Positions 22,729 to 36,348 of a DNA stretch of 64,000 nt are shown one piece after another; the stretch's first letter is position 1; the number at the start of each line of letters is the position of its first letter. A program made the position numbers and the translations under genes. The notes beneath the pieces are model-generated. The model had not been told where the DNA came from, made no database searches, and saw nothing but the letters and a program-made list of their open reading frames with translations. This DNA comes from Botryllus schlosseri (lineage: Eukaryota): assembly GCA_051294905.1 (NCBI GenBank), contig CM119371.1:8310001-8374000 (forward strand), written 5' to 3'.

Positions 22729-22948
22729 ATGTATATGCGAATAAAATCAATAGTTTCAAAGTTTGCTTAGTACGTTTAAGGGCGATATTCGCTACGTTCA
22801 TTATAGCAATCATCTCAATCAGCAGTAGCGACTTGCTTTCGGTTAGGTGATAGTGGCTACATATTACCATTATCTAGCAAGAACCAGGAATTTGTATTGA
22901 GTGACTTCGCTAGTAGTTATTATGATCGCTCAACCGGTGGCAGGGGTT

Positions 22949-23320
22949 CTTATGGGCGGGGTGGTGAGGTGCCTGAAAACCGGGGGTGGTGAGCGGCTCC
23001 TTATACCTTATGGCGGGGTGGTGAGCGGCTATTGCGTCTTATGGCGGGGGTCGTGAGCGGCTCTTATTTCTTATGGCGGGGGTCGTGAGCGGCTGGAAAA
23101 CCGGGGGTGGTGAGCGGCTTTTATGTCTTATGGCGGGGGTCGTGAGCGGCTATTGTGTCTTATGGGTGTGGTGGCGAGCGGCTATTGTGTCTTATGGTCG
23201 CACGGTAACCCTTTTCAGCATAGGGATCGGTCGCAAGCGGCTCTTATGTCTTATCGCGGAGGTGGCATACGGCTATTGCGTCTTATGGTGGGGGTGGCAA
23301 GCGGCTATTGTGTCTTGTGG
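22949..23320 (+). repeat. GC-rich ~32-bp subterminal tandem repeat (mirrored at ~35975-36312)
   Basis: Units like CTTATGGCGGGGGTCGTGAGCGGCTATTGTGT repeated about 10 times with variation. Confidence 0.9.
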
Positions 23321-33100: not shown

Positions 33101-36100
33101 TGGTTTCATTACAAGGTGAGTGAAAATTGTTTTCTGTTGGTCAGGTATGATTTGCATTTAGAAAAACGATCTACACCGATTAAGCGACGCTGTTTCATAT
33201 CTGATGAGTGAGTGAAATTTCCTTATGGTTTGATTTAGCGAGTTAATTATCGGTGATTCAATCAGATACAAGTAAGATCTTTAGTGACAGAGTATTGTGA
33301 TGACATTTACTTTAGCGAATGACAACGGAAAAATTTTCGATTACATTGTCGGTGTATGTGTTACACAAATAATTCTAGTACACCTAACCATAGGGTACAT
33401 TTGGCAAACATCGTACAAAGTGTTTCTTTGTGTTGGTAACGACTTTCAGCGGTTTGGTTTCATGTCGGGAATTATTATTTGAGGGTTCAAAAAACAATTT
33501 CAATCAATGCTACAAATGAACAACAATGCAAAACACGTTTAGTGAATTACAGTGTAGCAAGTACTTCCTTAATATTACGATTGTTGTGCACTAGACATTT
33601 CTAGTTGAATTGAATGCGTCGAGCAAACATATTCAATTTACTTTTGTAATGATCAAAGTCTTGCAACCTCGTGATATTTTACATTTAGCACGGTCTATAG
33701 AAAGTGTGAACGGAGTTGAGTATTAATCGTGTACTTGGGATAGTGCTTTGATATCAAAGATATATTTTCACACTGTGTAATGTTTCGATTCTCTGTTGTG
33801 AATACCTCCAGTAACGACATTGATGTTAAATCCTCACTCTTGGTCATTGTAAGCGAATCCTAAACATCGCAACAGTCGGTATGGAAATCGAACGCATGCA
33901 TACTTTTAGATAGGCGACACTAACAAGTTTATTACATCCGTGAAATACTCTGAAACGTCGATTCGTGATTGTGTTAGCTATATTCATCTTCTATATCTGT
34001 GGACACAAAGAATTCTTAACTTTGGTTACAGCTCATTCGTAACGAATTGTTGCGTGCAATCTAGAAAAGCACAAGTCGAAGACGAATGATTTGATTTCAA
34101 TAAACTAAAAAAAAATCCTTTTGTTTTGATGTTGGATTTAATACAATTTGTATGACTATACCGAATCCGAAAGTGCAATGTTACTTTAGTAGAAAAATTG
34201 GGTGACTCGCATTTTGATATTGATAGATGTGTAGAGTAATATGACTAGTTTATAAAATCTCGGTAATGTTTTTTTGTCATGTCTGTGATCAACAAATATG
34301 TGATCAAGTCTTACCATTCGATATTAACTTTCGCAGTCGGTGTAATTTGTTGAAGTAACAATACCGACGAGTTCAATAATATTCTCCATCGATGCATTCG
34401 AATAATCCGTTAGCTGCAAGCGGATTTAAAACTTGATGCTGTTTCGCGGTTAACTCAAGTCAGTGGTCGTGTTTGTGTTGATTTCAGGAATGATCATGAC
34501 GAGTTGCTTGGGTAGATTAGTTAATGTGGTTGTAACTACGACCGTACAGAGTTGCTGACACCCCAATATCTTTTACGCTGTAATATACGGATTTAATTGT
34601 GATAAATTAATTCTCAGTTATTGTTCGGACATTCAAATCTCGTATACTCAAAATATAATATGTCCAAGTCAAATCGTATATGTACCGATTAGTAAATACT
34701 TTGTCTTACAGAATAGTAACGACCTTTACAGTCGAATAAAAACGACCGATCATACGAATACATTCAGGATGAATTAAAGTTTGTGAGTTGTAGTGATATA
34801 ATCAAGTAAGTGAAAACTAGATTTTTAACAATTGTTAATGTTGTGAAGAATTCTTTTGAGTATGGTAAGATGTTAAAATATCTCTTTGACAAACGGAAAG
34901 CGGGATCGCGAATAGAGTTGCAATGTTTCATTACTTGTTTCAAATCAATGAGCATATAATATCGAAATGGGACTGCGGGAAAGTTGGTAGTCATGTTTGT
35001 CAATCTATTTCAATTCAGACTATGTCAAAGTCCAAATATTTCATTTTGGATTATTTGGATTTACCTTTAGTACATCCGCGAATGGATTCCGACACCGTAC
35101 TATAATTAGATCGCTATGTCTGATGCATTATCGCGTCACCGACGTAGGATTTTACAATTATTTCACACCTTTTTTGAATAAGCGTCAACTTCACAGAGGA
35201 TTAGGGTTGGGGCAGAAATAAGTGAAAATTTGTCGGTATTCGAATCACCGTCTACGCCGGCTCTGTTATTCGTTACTTATTAAATTTTACCAGTGAAATC
35301 CGGTTCTGTGACAAACTAAGTACCAAAATAGTATCTTGCGAGTGATTGGAATGTATGTAACAGCAAGTCGCGAAAGATGGTTATGTCCGAGACAATATCT
35401 TGTCAGCGATCGCGGGGTTTGCAACCTATTTCACACCTTTTTGAAGTGTTAGTTTGTGGACGCGGCTATTGTTGGTATCACCGTCTACGCAGGTTATGTG
35501 ACAAACTTATTACCAAAATATTACTTGTGCGTGATTCCTATCTTTGTAACATCAAACCACGAGAGATGACTATTCTGATGTGCAATCTTGTGAGTGGTCG
35601 TAGGAAATATTTCACACCTTTTTGGAGTGTTAGTATGTGAACGCGGCTATTGTTGGTATTCGAATCGTCGTCTACACCGGCTCTGTGGTAAACTAAATAG
35701 CAAAACATTACCATGCGACTGATTCGAAAATTGCGCTATCGCGGTGAAGTCACGACTGTGAACAGCAGACTATTCTGTAGGTGCGAAACAGCGGTATACA
35801 AGGTGCGAATAACCCGATCTGAAAGTACTATTCAGGTTACGTAGAAATCAATAGCGACGAAAGACTTAGAACACGATCGGTCATTTGTCACGACTAAACT
35901 ACATCATATATAATAATTCACGATATACGCATTAACAAAGGTTCATTCAGCGAATCACCAGAGATCTGCGACCACAAGACACAATAGCCGCTTGCCACCC
36001 CCACCATAAGACGCAATAGCCGTATGCCACCTCCGCGATAAGACATAAGAGCCGCTTGCGACCGATCCCTATGCTGAAAAGGGTTACCGTGCGACCATAA

Positions 36101-36348
36101 GACACAATAGCCGCTCGCCACCACACCCATAAGACACAATAGCCGCTCACGACCCCCGCCATAAGACATAAAAGCCGCTCACCACCCCCGGTTTTCCAGC
36201 CGCTCACGACCCCCGCCATAAGACGCAATAGCCGCTCACCACCCCGCCATAAGGTATAAGGAGCCGCTCACCACCCCCGGTTTTCAGGCACCTCACCACC
36301 CCGCCCATAAGAACCCCTGCCACCGGTTGAGCGATCATAATAACTACT
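30136..36348 (-). repeat. Right arm (6213 bp) of the giant inverted repeat
   Basis: Reverse complement of 22912-29157. Confidence 0.97.

What the first reader, a model, noticed from the sequence alone, without database searches (positions are those of the whole stretch)
22912..36348. 13.4-kb near-perfect palindrome with Polinton ends nested in the provirus: candidate integrated copy-back defective genome or satellite
Seen: its own AGTAGT/ACTACT ends and 6-bp TSD, a terminal sequence different from the outer element, arms of 6246 and 6213 bp, a 978-bp loop, and no integrase, capsid or polymerase. Established: Polinton TIRs are usually hundreds of bp to about 1 kb, and copy-back/snap-back defective genomes arise in viruses by template switching. 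Inference: a second Polinton family kept its left ~7.2 kb, copied 6.2 kb back to rebuild a right end, and was then integrated in trans into another Polinton, making it a parasite of a parasite.
Basis: partly seen in the sequence, partly recalled or inferred. Interest (0 to 1): 0.92.

Follow-up and report, generated by a model that had tools for sequence, protein, structure and literature searches.

The report
Mobile giant-palindrome family riding on Polintons
The 13.4-kb palindrome is real, but it is one copy of an abundant mobile family of Polinton-derived elements, each made of two near-identical 6-kb arms around a 1-kb loop with one small conserved gene, so it is a stable lineage and not a one-off replication accident.

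Summary
The arms are 22912-29157 and 30136-36348, the loop is 978 bp, the ends are AGTAGT/ACTACT and the TSD is TTCGCT. The element sits inside a 13.3-kb polymerase-less Polinton with its own TIRs and TSD.

The copy-back reading is only partly supported. All 10 fully fetched copies in this 495-Mb genome are palindromes (arms 6.2-6.9 kb, loop 0.89-1.1 kb), and each has its own perfect 6-bp TSD. Four copies align without a break across both arm-loop junctions. A 20-mer of the loop gene occurs 216 times in the genome.

Within a copy the arms are 99.2-100% identical. Between copies they differ by 2-26%, and the two arms of a copy pair up on a tree. This is concerted evolution.

The element is not gene-free. 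The loop holds a 91-aa orphan ORF under purifying selection (dN/dS 0-0.27).

Homology to coding Polintons covers only the terminal ~0.66 kb, plus a protease-like gene in one subfamily. Those coding Polintons have TIRs of 0.64-0.81 kb. At least 28 intact polymerase genes of the matching family could act as helpers.

Best reading: a non-autonomous, one-gene Polinton derivative with giant inverted arms, mobilised in trans. How the arms are kept identical, and whether the element is packaged, is inferred only.

The parts
22906..22911 (.). Left target-site duplication TTCGCT of the palindromic element
   Evidence: Read directly. It matches 36349-36354.
22912..29157 (+). Left arm (6246 bp). No recognisable coding content apart from gene remnants.
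   Evidence: 0 of 69 ORFs hit Pfam. No Rfam match.
22912..23574 (+). Terminal module shared with coding Polintons of the same genome. It starts AGTAGTTA and contains 32-bp tandem repeats (22947-23316).
   Evidence: blastn: 22912-23539 is 85.6% identical to the C7 left TIR, 23145-23567 is 97.2% identical to the C7 right TIR, and 22912-23242 is 87% identical to C1b. Nothing further in matches. Tandem repeats.
23607..23717 (-). Remnant of the 43 codons that lie upstream of the protease-like gene kept intact in subfamily C13. The protease domain itself is missing here.
   Evidence: tblastn with the C13 ORF, (59% over 37 aa, E 1.6e-6). The mirror copy is at 35575-35685.
27925..28432 (+). Array of 21/41/42-bp tandem repeats near the loop. 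It is the arm segment aligned in all 9 other copies.
   Evidence: (14 motif matches in the window, all inside the two arms; 0.05 expected by chance).
29158..30135 (.). Unique 978-bp loop
   Evidence: Four other copies align without a break across both of its junctions.
29212..29484 (-). 91-aa ORF (P0001), the only conserved gene. Orphan protein, predicted all-beta.
   Evidence: dN/dS 0-0.27. 145 of 150 scored genomic copies have no stop. Model pLDDT 75.7.
30136..36348 (-). Right arm (6213 bp), the reverse complement of the left arm
30873..31367 (-). Mirror copy of the tandem-repeat array near the loop
35725..36348 (-). Mirror copy of the Polinton-type terminal module, ending ACTACT
36349..36354 (.). 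Right target-site duplication TTCGCT
12176..38964 (+). Outer host element: a polymerase-less Polinton, 13.3 kb without the insert. Its TIRs are 12176-12652 and 38488-38964, and its TSD CATGGA is at 12170-12175 and 38965-38970.
   Evidence: Pfam: BIR, Bcl-2, A32-type ATPase, rve+chromo integrase, weak double-jelly-roll match. Only a 73-aa polymerase C-terminal remnant is left, at 16319-16528.
14685..14960 (-). 92-aa paralogue (P0002) of the loop gene, lying in the outer element between its BIR and Bcl-2 genes
   Evidence: 58.6% identity over 87 aa, E 1.8e-32.

Best explanation
The feature is one recent insertion of a high-copy, non-autonomous family derived from Polintons.

Anatomy. Each member is a 13.3-14.7-kb palindrome, leaving aside later insertions. 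Two arms of 6.2-6.9 kb begin with a Polinton-type terminal module: AGTAGTTA...GATCG, then 32-bp subterminal repeats. The arms enclose a loop of about 1 kb that encodes a single 91-aa orphan protein.

Mobility. The element has no integrase, polymerase or capsid genes. It is therefore most likely moved in trans by the many intact autonomous Polintons of the same genome that share its termini. It integrates as a whole palindrome and makes a 6-bp duplication.

Arms. The two arms of each lineage evolve in concert. My preferred mechanism (about 50%) is that a displaced single strand snaps back into a hairpin, or giant panhandle, during protein-primed replication, and that mismatches in the stem are repaired or copied. 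That is the process thought to keep the short inverted ends of such replicons identical. Ordinary arm-to-arm gene conversion in the chromosome is the main alternative (about 35%).

Loop gene. It is kept by selection, so it presumably helps the element. Its function is unknown.

Shown: structure, TSDs, family membership, concerted evolution, selection on the ORF, presence of intact candidate helpers.
Inferred: mobilisation in trans, the way the arms are homogenised, any packaging.

The confidence given is for the core claim (a mobile, non-autonomous, Polinton-derived palindrome family with arms that evolve in concert and one selected gene). It does not cover the homogenisation mechanism.
For: Family and architecture.
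- The terminal 489 nt recurs in inverted pairs 12.7-27 kb apart on many contigs (51 matches, 40 of 1744 candidates scored).
- 10 of 10 fully fetched copies have arms of 6.2-6.9 kb and loops of 888-1103 bp. Arm-to-arm identity is 99.2% in the window copy with its indel counted, and 99.7-100% in the other nine.
- All 10 have AGTAGT/ACTACT ends and perfect 6-bp TSDs, all different: TTCGCT, GCTGTG, CACGAC, CATGTG, ATCGAC, ATCGTA, CCCGGC, CTCAAG, TATATG, ACCGTA.

Concerted evolution.
- Aligned 250-bp bins of the window arm are 74-99% identical to the other copies, and some segments do not align at all.
- On a tree of 20 arm segments, the two arms of a copy are sisters in 9 of 10 copies; the C12a arms stay unresolved.

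Abundance.
- The protein search scored 150 of 1202 candidates. All were at least 90% identical and 145 of 150 had no stop.
- A 20-mer of the ORF occurs 216 times (104 forward, 112 reverse); the control pattern occurs 0 times.

The loop gene is real.
- dN/dS is 0-0.27 in 7 of 7 comparisons.
- The length stays at 90-92 aa down to 57% identity.

Link to Polintons.
- Homology to the coding elements C7 and C1b covers only 22912-23574, and reaches 97% over 423 nt.
- C1b encodes a 1242-aa DNA_pol_B_2 protein, an rve+chromo integrase and an ATPase.
- 28 of 37 long polymerase matches have no stop (37 of 435 candidates scored).
- C13 carries an intact 187-aa protease-like ORF in both arms, 79% identical to the ORF next to the TIR in C7 and C1b.

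Size.
- The palindromes are 13.3-14.7 kb. C1b is 15.65 kb once its LTR-retrotransposon insertion is removed. C7 is 13.4 kb and the outer element 13.3 kb.
Against: - Mobilisation in trans is not shown directly.
- The nine copies I compared were not a random sample. Five came from the best DNA hits and four were hand-picked from the protein list.
- Loci with unequal or rearranged arms were left out of the count of ten. C14 was only partly fetched, and its loop is split by about 3.5 kb. C2:36.07 Mb, C15:20.50 Mb and C10:12.41 Mb were seen only as hit coordinates.
- Three of the nine other copies (C1c, C13, C12b) share no blastn match with the window copy's first 500 bp, although their first ~25 bases are alike.
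- Nothing here separates replication-linked homogenisation from in-place gene conversion. The one dated secondary insertion (C12a, LTRs 100% identical) is too young to tell.
- No read spans the structure. The laid records were short contigs.
- Raw RNA reads were few. 177 were laid, with depth about 0.3 over the ORF and a peak at 28418-28690 inside the arm.
- The arms could hold spliced or very short genes that ORF and Pfam screens miss.
Confidence: 0.8

Rival explanations
1. A single copy-back (snap-back) defective genome arose by template switching on a Polinton that kept its left 7.2 kb, and was then integrated once.
For: - The palindrome has a unique loop, as copy-back products do.
- The arm tips are of Polinton origin.
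- C13 keeps the gene next to the terminus in both arms. The founding event of the family may well have been of this kind.
Against: - 10 of 10 copies share the architecture, and four align across both junctions.
- Lineages with dS 1.1-1.5 in the loop gene are all palindromes.
- Only about 0.66 kb of the arm matches any coding Polinton.
- The loop gene is under selection.
Confidence: 0.05
2. An ordinary cut-and-paste style non-autonomous transposon with very long TIRs. The arms are kept identical only by arm-to-arm gene conversion within the chromosome. This is what is thought to happen in large genomic palindromes and in plastid inverted repeats (recalled). No virus-like replication or packaging is involved.
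For: - Concerted evolution is shown, but its site and timing are not.
- Closely spaced inverted repeats are good substrates for conversion (recalled).
- No extrachromosomal form was seen here.
Against: - Insertions present in one arm only persist in 3 of 10 copies (C10a, C11a, C12a) with flanking arms still at least 99.9% identical. These insertions may simply be very young.
- The length is conserved and stays close to that of coding Polintons although the arm sequence is mosaic. Conversion alone does not predict this.
Confidence: 0.3
3. An assembly artefact: fold-back chimeric reads or a mis-joined inverted duplication.
For: - Long palindromes are a known failure mode of assemblies.
- No spanning read could be examined.
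Against: - The same architecture recurs at 10 loci on 9 contigs, with sequence-diverged copies.
- Each copy is bounded by its own perfect 6-bp TSD in unique flanks.
- Three copies have insertions in one arm only.
Confidence: 0.02
4. A host-serving hairpin locus, for example a source of double-stranded RNA that silences Polintons, which only looks like a transposon.
For: - A perfect 6-kb inverted repeat would give long dsRNA if transcribed.
- The arm tips match Polinton TIRs.
Against: - Hundreds of dispersed copies with TSDs.
- Only about 0.66 kb of each arm matches Polintons, and none of it is Polinton coding sequence.
- The conserved part is a protein gene in the loop.
- Small RNA data were not examined.
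Confidence: 0.03

Closest known systems
Polinton/Maverick transposons and their non-autonomous derivatives
   Same: - 5'-AG...CT-3' ends and a 6-bp TSD.
- Terminal inverted repeats whose outer part is homologous to coding elements of the same genome.
- Dependence on an integrase and a protein-primed polymerase encoded elsewhere.
- For comparison, a typical complete element in Anolis is 17.5 kb with a 6-bp TSD and a 584-bp TIR (PMC3014272, passages read).
   Different: - The inverted arms are 6.2-6.9 kb and make up about 93% of the element. Coding Polintons here have TIRs of 0.48-0.81 kb.
- One orphan gene sits in a central loop.
- There are hundreds of copies.
- The arm interiors are unrelated to Polinton genes.
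- I found no description of such a family in four full-text searches. A fifth looked for Polintons carrying BIR or Bcl-2 genes and also found nothing. Repbase could not be consulted.
Copy-back / snap-back defective viral genomes, including adenovirus incomplete-particle DNA with long inverted terminal duplications (recalled, not read here)
   Same: - A palindrome built from one genome end around a unique turn.
- Loss of replication and capsid genes.
- Dependence on a helper.
   Different: - This is a heritable, diversified lineage with a fixed junction, not a sporadic by-product.
- It is integrated with TSDs.
- It carries its own gene under selection.
- Only the outermost ~0.66 kb is shared with the putative helper.
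Transpovirons
   Same: Small linear dsDNA elements with terminal inverted repeats. They are thought to derive from polinton-like viruses by losing the virion module, and they can integrate (PMC5499653, passages read).
   Different: - Transpovirons are about 7 kb and encode a helicase and a Zn-ribbon protein.
- They ride in mimivirus particles in protists.
- No giant palindrome is described in the passages read.
Foldback (FB) elements of Drosophila (recalled)
   Same: - Very long inverted repeats that contain tandem sub-repeats.
- Little or no coding capacity.
- A variable central region.
   Different: - Here the arms are mostly unique sequence.
- The ends are AGTAGT with a 6-bp TSD, and the terminal module is shared with Polintons.
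Large genomic palindromes and plastid inverted repeats kept identical by gene conversion (recalled)
   Same: Arm-to-arm identity is far higher than divergence between lineages, that is, concerted evolution.
   Different: Those are fixed chromosomal or organellar features. This is a mobile multi-copy element.

Membership tests
Polinton/Maverick superfamily (as a non-autonomous derivative) | 6-bp target-site duplication | tested here: met
   TTCGCT on both sides. The 9 other copies each have a different perfect 6-bp TSD.
Polinton/Maverick superfamily (as a non-autonomous derivative) | 5'-AG ... CT-3' termini and terminal inverted repeats | tested here: met
   AGTAGT/ACTACT in 10 of 10 copies and in the coding elements C7, C1b and the outer element. 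The repeat length is about 10 times the usual.
Polinton/Maverick superfamily (as a non-autonomous derivative) | Terminal sequence homologous to an autonomous Polinton in the same genome | tested here: met
   22912-23574 matches the TIRs of C7 (85.6% and 97.2%) and of C1b (87%). C1b encodes polymerase, integrase and ATPase.
Polinton/Maverick superfamily (autonomous member) | Encodes a protein-primed family B polymerase and a retroviral-type integrase | tested here: not met
   No tblastn match inside 22912-36348. 0 of 69 ORFs hit Pfam. The element is therefore non-autonomous.
Copy-back / snap-back defective genome | The arm is collinear with one end of the parental genome up to the switch point | tested here: not met
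   Only the terminal ~0.66 kb matches the coding relatives. The protease-like gene next to the terminus is retained only in subfamily C13. A closer parent may exist that I did not fetch.
Copy-back / snap-back defective genome | Sporadic origin, so each product has its own junction | tested here: not met
   Four other copies align without a break across both junctions. Loops are 962-978 bp in the close subfamily.
Satellite or helper-dependent virus-like element | Replication and encapsidation by a helper's machinery | not testable with these tools
   Only indirect evidence: shared termini, intact candidate helpers, and a length of 13.3-14.7 kb against 15.65 kb for the autonomous relative.
Foldback (FB) transposons | Arms made largely of tandem sub-repeats, with an FB-type TSD (recalled as 9 bp) | tested here: not met
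   Tandem repeats cover only about 0.4 kb at the tip and about 0.5 kb near the loop of each 6.2-kb arm. The TSD is 6 bp.
Small heat-shock / alpha-crystallin or CS-p23 fold (for the 91-aa protein) | Structural match to the beta-sandwich domain | tested here: inconclusive
   Foldseek best E 7e-3, TM 0.37. VIA-align best Z 5.3, rmsd 3.7, 72 residues aligned, below the Z 7-8 that the tool names as typical noise. No Pfam match.

The most novel reading that the evidence does not exclude
These palindromes are genomes of a satellite, a hyperparasite, of endogenous polintoviruses in an animal. On this reading they are a one-gene replicon that borrows the helper's terminal recognition, polymerase, integrase and perhaps capsid. 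It fills the helper's genome-length requirement by being an inverted dimer of non-coding stuffer. Its 6-kb arms are made identical again in every replication round through a snap-back hairpin. That would be the first satellite described for Polintons and a natural giant-ITR protein-primed replicon in a metazoan.
Probability: 0.3. Interest if true: 0.9.

Novelty: new variant of a known kind. Interest (0 to 1): 0.72.

Why it matters
- Polintons are suspected to be real viruses, but their life cycle has not been observed. A high-copy dependent element tells us which cis signals are enough for mobilisation: here about 0.66 kb of terminal sequence.
- Arms that stay identical while lineages diverge give a natural read-out of an intramolecular pairing step, either in replication or in the chromosome.
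- Hundreds of perfect 13-kb palindromes are also a practical matter. They are hot spots for hairpin formation, rearrangement and assembly error, and a potential source of long double-stranded RNA.
- The conserved orphan loop gene, with a paralogue lying between BIR and Bcl-2 genes in another Polinton, is a candidate element-host or element-helper interaction factor.

Tried and rejected
Arm content
- Pfam on 69 arm and loop ORFs: 0 hits.
- Rfam on 22800-30300 at E<=0.1: 0 hits.
- The 149-aa plus-strand ORF at 28984-29433, and its counterparts in other copies, change frame between copies and look non-coding. I dropped them in favour of the 91-aa minus-strand ORF.

Function of the 91-aa protein
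- Pfam: only TriTu at E 0.11.
- Word-indexed homologue search: 4 hits of 90-91 aa on contigs of about 1 kb, with no names.
- Profile search of 1.84 billion representatives: one true cluster and 4 weak partial hits to long proteins.
- ESM Atlas: best score 0.89, below the tool's threshold.
- IMG/VR scan: 45 pattern matches, none confirmed.
- Fold searches: weak only.

Protease assignment
- Pfam: 0 of 4 members matched.
- PDB profile search: ASFV S273R cysteine protease at E 0.12 only. I therefore call the gene 'protease-like'. The name rests on its position next to the capsid gene and on recalled His/Cys motifs.

Reads
- No RNA holder was listed for the loop.
- The lay gave short contigs and no record spanning the stretch, so the assembly could not be checked read by read. 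The 177 raw RNA reads do not settle expression.

Other
- Age test from the LTR retrotransposon inside C12a: the LTRs are 100% identical, so it is uninformative.
- Mismatch clustering near the loop: seen only in the window copy, inside a tandem-repeat tract, and not in the six other copies that the script reached before it stopped with an error at C13. It was not re-run for C13, C12b and C16.
- Earlier findings of this scan: none for this genome.
- Kapitonov and Jurka 2006 is not held. Statements about the original Polinton model are recalled.
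Full report
**1.
The repeat finder on the whole window returns three collinear inverted pairs:
- 22912-23062 / 36198-36348 (151 nt, 100%)
- 23047-28331 / 30961-36245 (5285 nt, 100%)
- 28319-29157 / 30136-30974 (839 nt, 98%)

These give arms of 6246 and 6213 bp around a 978-bp loop. A single gapped alignment of the arms has 6246 columns at 99.2%. It has 50 differing columns. Of these, 32 are one indel in the terminal 32-bp repeats, and 12 (756-836 nt from the loop) lie close together in a tandem-repeat tract near the loop.

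The element starts AGTAGTTATTATGATCGC, ends ACTACT, and is flanked by TTCGCT on both sides.

It lies in a larger element, 12176-38964. That element has 477-nt perfect TIRs, a different terminal sequence (AGTAGTG...) and the TSD CATGGA.

**2. The host element.**
Pfam finds these genes between the outer TIRs:
- a BIR domain protein (13325-13957, minus strand)
- a Bcl-2 family protein (15452-16135)
- an A32-type ATPase
- an rve+chromo integrase
- a weak double-jelly-roll match (20999-22273)

Only a 73-aa C-terminal remnant of a protein-primed polymerase is left, at 16319-16528. The outer element is therefore a polymerase-less Polinton of 13.3 kb. The palindrome is inserted 183 bp downstream of its last ORF (22261-22728).

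**3. The palindrome is a family trait, not an accident.**
The window belongs to a 495-Mb eukaryotic assembly.
- The terminal 489 nt recurs in inverted pairs 12.7-27 kb apart on many contigs (51 matches, 40 of 1744 candidates scored).
- The arm interior recurs at other loci, again as inverted pairs (6 of 4496 candidates scored).

I fetched five such loci, then four more chosen from the protein hits.

Counting the window copy, 10 of 10 complete copies are palindromes:
- arms of 6.2-6.9 kb
- loops of 888-1103 bp (962-978 bp in the close subfamily)
- arm-to-arm identity of 99.2% in the window copy and 99.7-100% in the other nine

All ten have AGTAGT/ACTACT ends and a perfect 6-bp TSD, and all ten TSDs differ.

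C11a, C1c, C13 and C12b align with the window copy without a break across both arm-loop junctions.

Three copies carry later insertions in one arm only:
- C12a has a BEL/Pao-type LTR retrotransposon.
- C10a has a reverse-transcriptase element and a second insert.
- C11a has a 1.4-kb insert.

Loci left out of the count: C14 was only partly fetched and its loop is split. Three loci with unequal arms were seen only as coordinates.

Recurrence with distinct TSDs and diverged sequence makes an assembly artefact very unlikely. No spanning read could be examined, however.

**4. The arms evolve in concert.**
Aligned 250-bp bins of the window arm are 74-99% identical to the other copies. Some segments do not align at all, so the arms are mosaics. 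Yet the two arms of any one copy are almost identical.

In a maximum-likelihood tree of the ~1.1 kb of arm next to the loop, taken from both arms of all ten copies, the two arms of a copy are sisters in 9 of 10 copies. The C12a pair stays unresolved.

The architecture is shared by lineages whose loop gene differs at saturated synonymous sites (dS 1.1-1.5). The arms must therefore be homogenised repeatedly. Independent drift since a single founding duplication would have made them as different as the lineages are.

**5. What the element carries.**
The arms have no ORF longer than about 130 aa. Of 69 ORFs of 45 aa or more, 0 hit Pfam, and there is no Rfam match.

Homology to coding Polintons stops at 23574:
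- 22912-23539 is 85.6% identical to the left TIR of C7.
- 23145-23567 is 97.2% identical to the right TIR of C7.
- 22912-23242 is 87% identical to C1b.

One subfamily, C13, keeps an intact 187-aa ORF just inside the terminal module in both arms.
- It is 79% identical to the ORF next to the TIR in C7 and C1b, and 49% identical to the last ORF of the outer element.
- I call it protease-like from its position and from recalled motifs only. Pfam gives nothing and the best PDB hit is E 0.12.
- The other copies keep only the 43 codons upstream of it (window 23607-23717).

The arm tips therefore derive from the capsid/protease end of a Polinton. The remaining ~4.7 kb of each arm has no recognisable origin. 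A 21/41/42-bp tandem array at 27925-28432 is the arm segment aligned in all nine other copies.

**6. The loop gene.**
A tblastx hit led to a 91-aa ORF on the minus strand, 29212-29484 (P0001). It is 58.6% identical to a 92-aa ORF of the outer element that lies between its BIR and Bcl-2 genes.
- It is present in the loop of every palindromic copy (for the four later copies).
- It stays at 90-92 aa down to 57% identity.
- dN/dS is 0-0.27 in 7 of 7 comparisons.
- In the genome, 150 of 1202 candidates were scored. All were at least 90% identical, and 145 of 150 had no stop.
- A 20-mer of the ORF occurs 216 times; the control pattern occurs 0 times.

Outside this genome I found only four proteins of 90-91 aa, on contigs of about 1 kb, and one representative cluster among 1.84 billion proteins. 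A run labelled as a second organism holds a 712-nt contig that is 96% identical across the ORF.

The AlphaFold model is an eight-strand all-beta protein with pLDDT 75.7. The best fold matches are alpha-crystallin and CS/p23 beta-sandwiches at TM 0.37 and Z 5.3. That is below the level the tool treats as meaningful. The function is unknown.

**7. Candidate helpers.**
C1b has a TSD and an 810-bp TIR. It encodes a 1242-aa DNA_pol_B_2 protein, an rve+chromo integrase and an ATPase. Without a 5.27-kb LTR-retrotransposon insertion (LTRs 314 bp, 100% identical) it is 15.65 kb.

C7 (13.4 kb, TIR 637 bp) is a polymerase-deleted relative.

A search with the C1b polymerase scored 37 of 435 candidates. 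Of the 37 long matches, 28 have no stop. Intact elements of the family whose termini match the palindromes are therefore plentiful.

**8. Most likely mechanism.**
Shown:
- The whole palindrome integrates with a 6-bp duplication.
- It shares only its terminal module with coding Polintons.
- It lacks their enzymes.
- Its arms evolve in concert.
- Its single gene is under selection.

Inferred:
- The helper's integrase, and probably its protein-primed polymerase, act on the shared termini in trans.
- For arm identity I favour, at about 50%, a snap-back hairpin of the displaced strand during protein-primed replication, with repair or copying across the stem. This would be a giant version of the panhandle thought to keep short inverted ends identical (recalled).
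- Gene conversion in the chromosome, at about 35%, is the main alternative. The data here cannot separate the two.

The lengths are 13.3-14.7 kb for the palindromes, 15.65 kb for the autonomous relative and 13.3-13.4 kb for polymerase-less relatives. They suggest, but do not show, a size constraint such as packaging, with the non-coding arms acting as stuffer.

**9. Comparison and novelty.**
The element meets the Polinton criteria for ends, TSD and terminal homology. It fails the criterion of encoding polymerase and integrase. It is therefore a non-autonomous derivative.

It resembles copy-back defective genomes in shape. It fails two of their features: collinearity with a parent, and junctions that are unique to each product.

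Transpovirons are the nearest conceptual relative. They are capsid-less TIR elements derived from polinton-like viruses (PMC5499653, passages read).

I found no description of a palindromic Polinton family in four full-text searches or in the passages read of PMC6431247 and PMC3014272. A fifth search, for Polintons carrying BIR or Bcl-2 genes, also found nothing. Repbase and subscription journals were not searchable. I rate it a new variant of a known kind.

**10. Verdict.**
It is wrong on the key point: the palindrome is a stable, gene-bearing lineage with arms that evolve in concert, not a fresh copy-back product.

Noticed in passing
window 12176-22911 (outer element, left part): The outer Polinton has lost its polymerase except for a 73-aa remnant at 16319-16528. 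In its place it carries a BIR-domain gene, a 92-aa paralogue of the loop gene and a Bcl-2 family gene. This looks like an apoptosis-related cargo module in a virus-like transposon. One full-text search found no paper on Polintons with both genes.
   Followed up: partly
L031 4269-4829 (-) and its mirror in L032 (C13 copy): One palindromic subfamily keeps an intact 187-aa protease-like ORF in both arms (100% and 99.5% identical to each other). The other nine copies retain only the 43 codons upstream of it. This is either the ancestral state or a terminal swap with a coding Polinton that was then copied to the second arm.
   Followed up: partly
L021 4531-9797 (C1b) and L019 1477-8419 (C12a): LTR retrotransposons inserted in a Polinton and in a palindrome arm have 100% identical LTRs (314 and 302 bp). 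Together with the many intact polymerase genes, this points to very recent, perhaps ongoing, transposon activity in this genome.
   Followed up: partly
Hit coordinates: C11:18267059/18273032, C13:4150498/4158032, C12:7182342/7193528, C11:22198396/22207233: Pairs of loop-gene copies lie 6-11 kb apart in the same orientation. That is closer than one element length, which suggests tandem, nested or rearranged palindromes.
   Followed up: no
Hit coordinates: C2:36066324-36074433, C15:20500059-20507657, C10:12413400-12422755; and L024/L025 (C14): These loci have unequal or interrupted arms, or adjacent head-to-head elements. They may be truncated or recombined palindromes and would be informative about instability.
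   Followed up: no
window 27925-28432 and 30873-31367: A 21-bp unit (TTTTTCACTGGGTAACAAACC, TRF consensus), repeated about 11 times, flanks the loop symmetrically and is aligned in all nine other copies. It is a candidate cis element, for example a protein-binding array or a promoter.
   Followed up: partly
window 193-302 and 40074-40183: A 110-nt inverted pair at 76% identity, 39.8 kb apart, brackets both Polintons (I11). It may be chance or the ends of a still larger or older element.
   Followed up: no
one search hits P0003-P0006: The only outside homologues of the loop protein sit on contigs of 922-1075 bp, about the length of the loop. A short-read assembler would produce that if the loop were bounded by inverted arms in those data sets too.
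   Followed up: no
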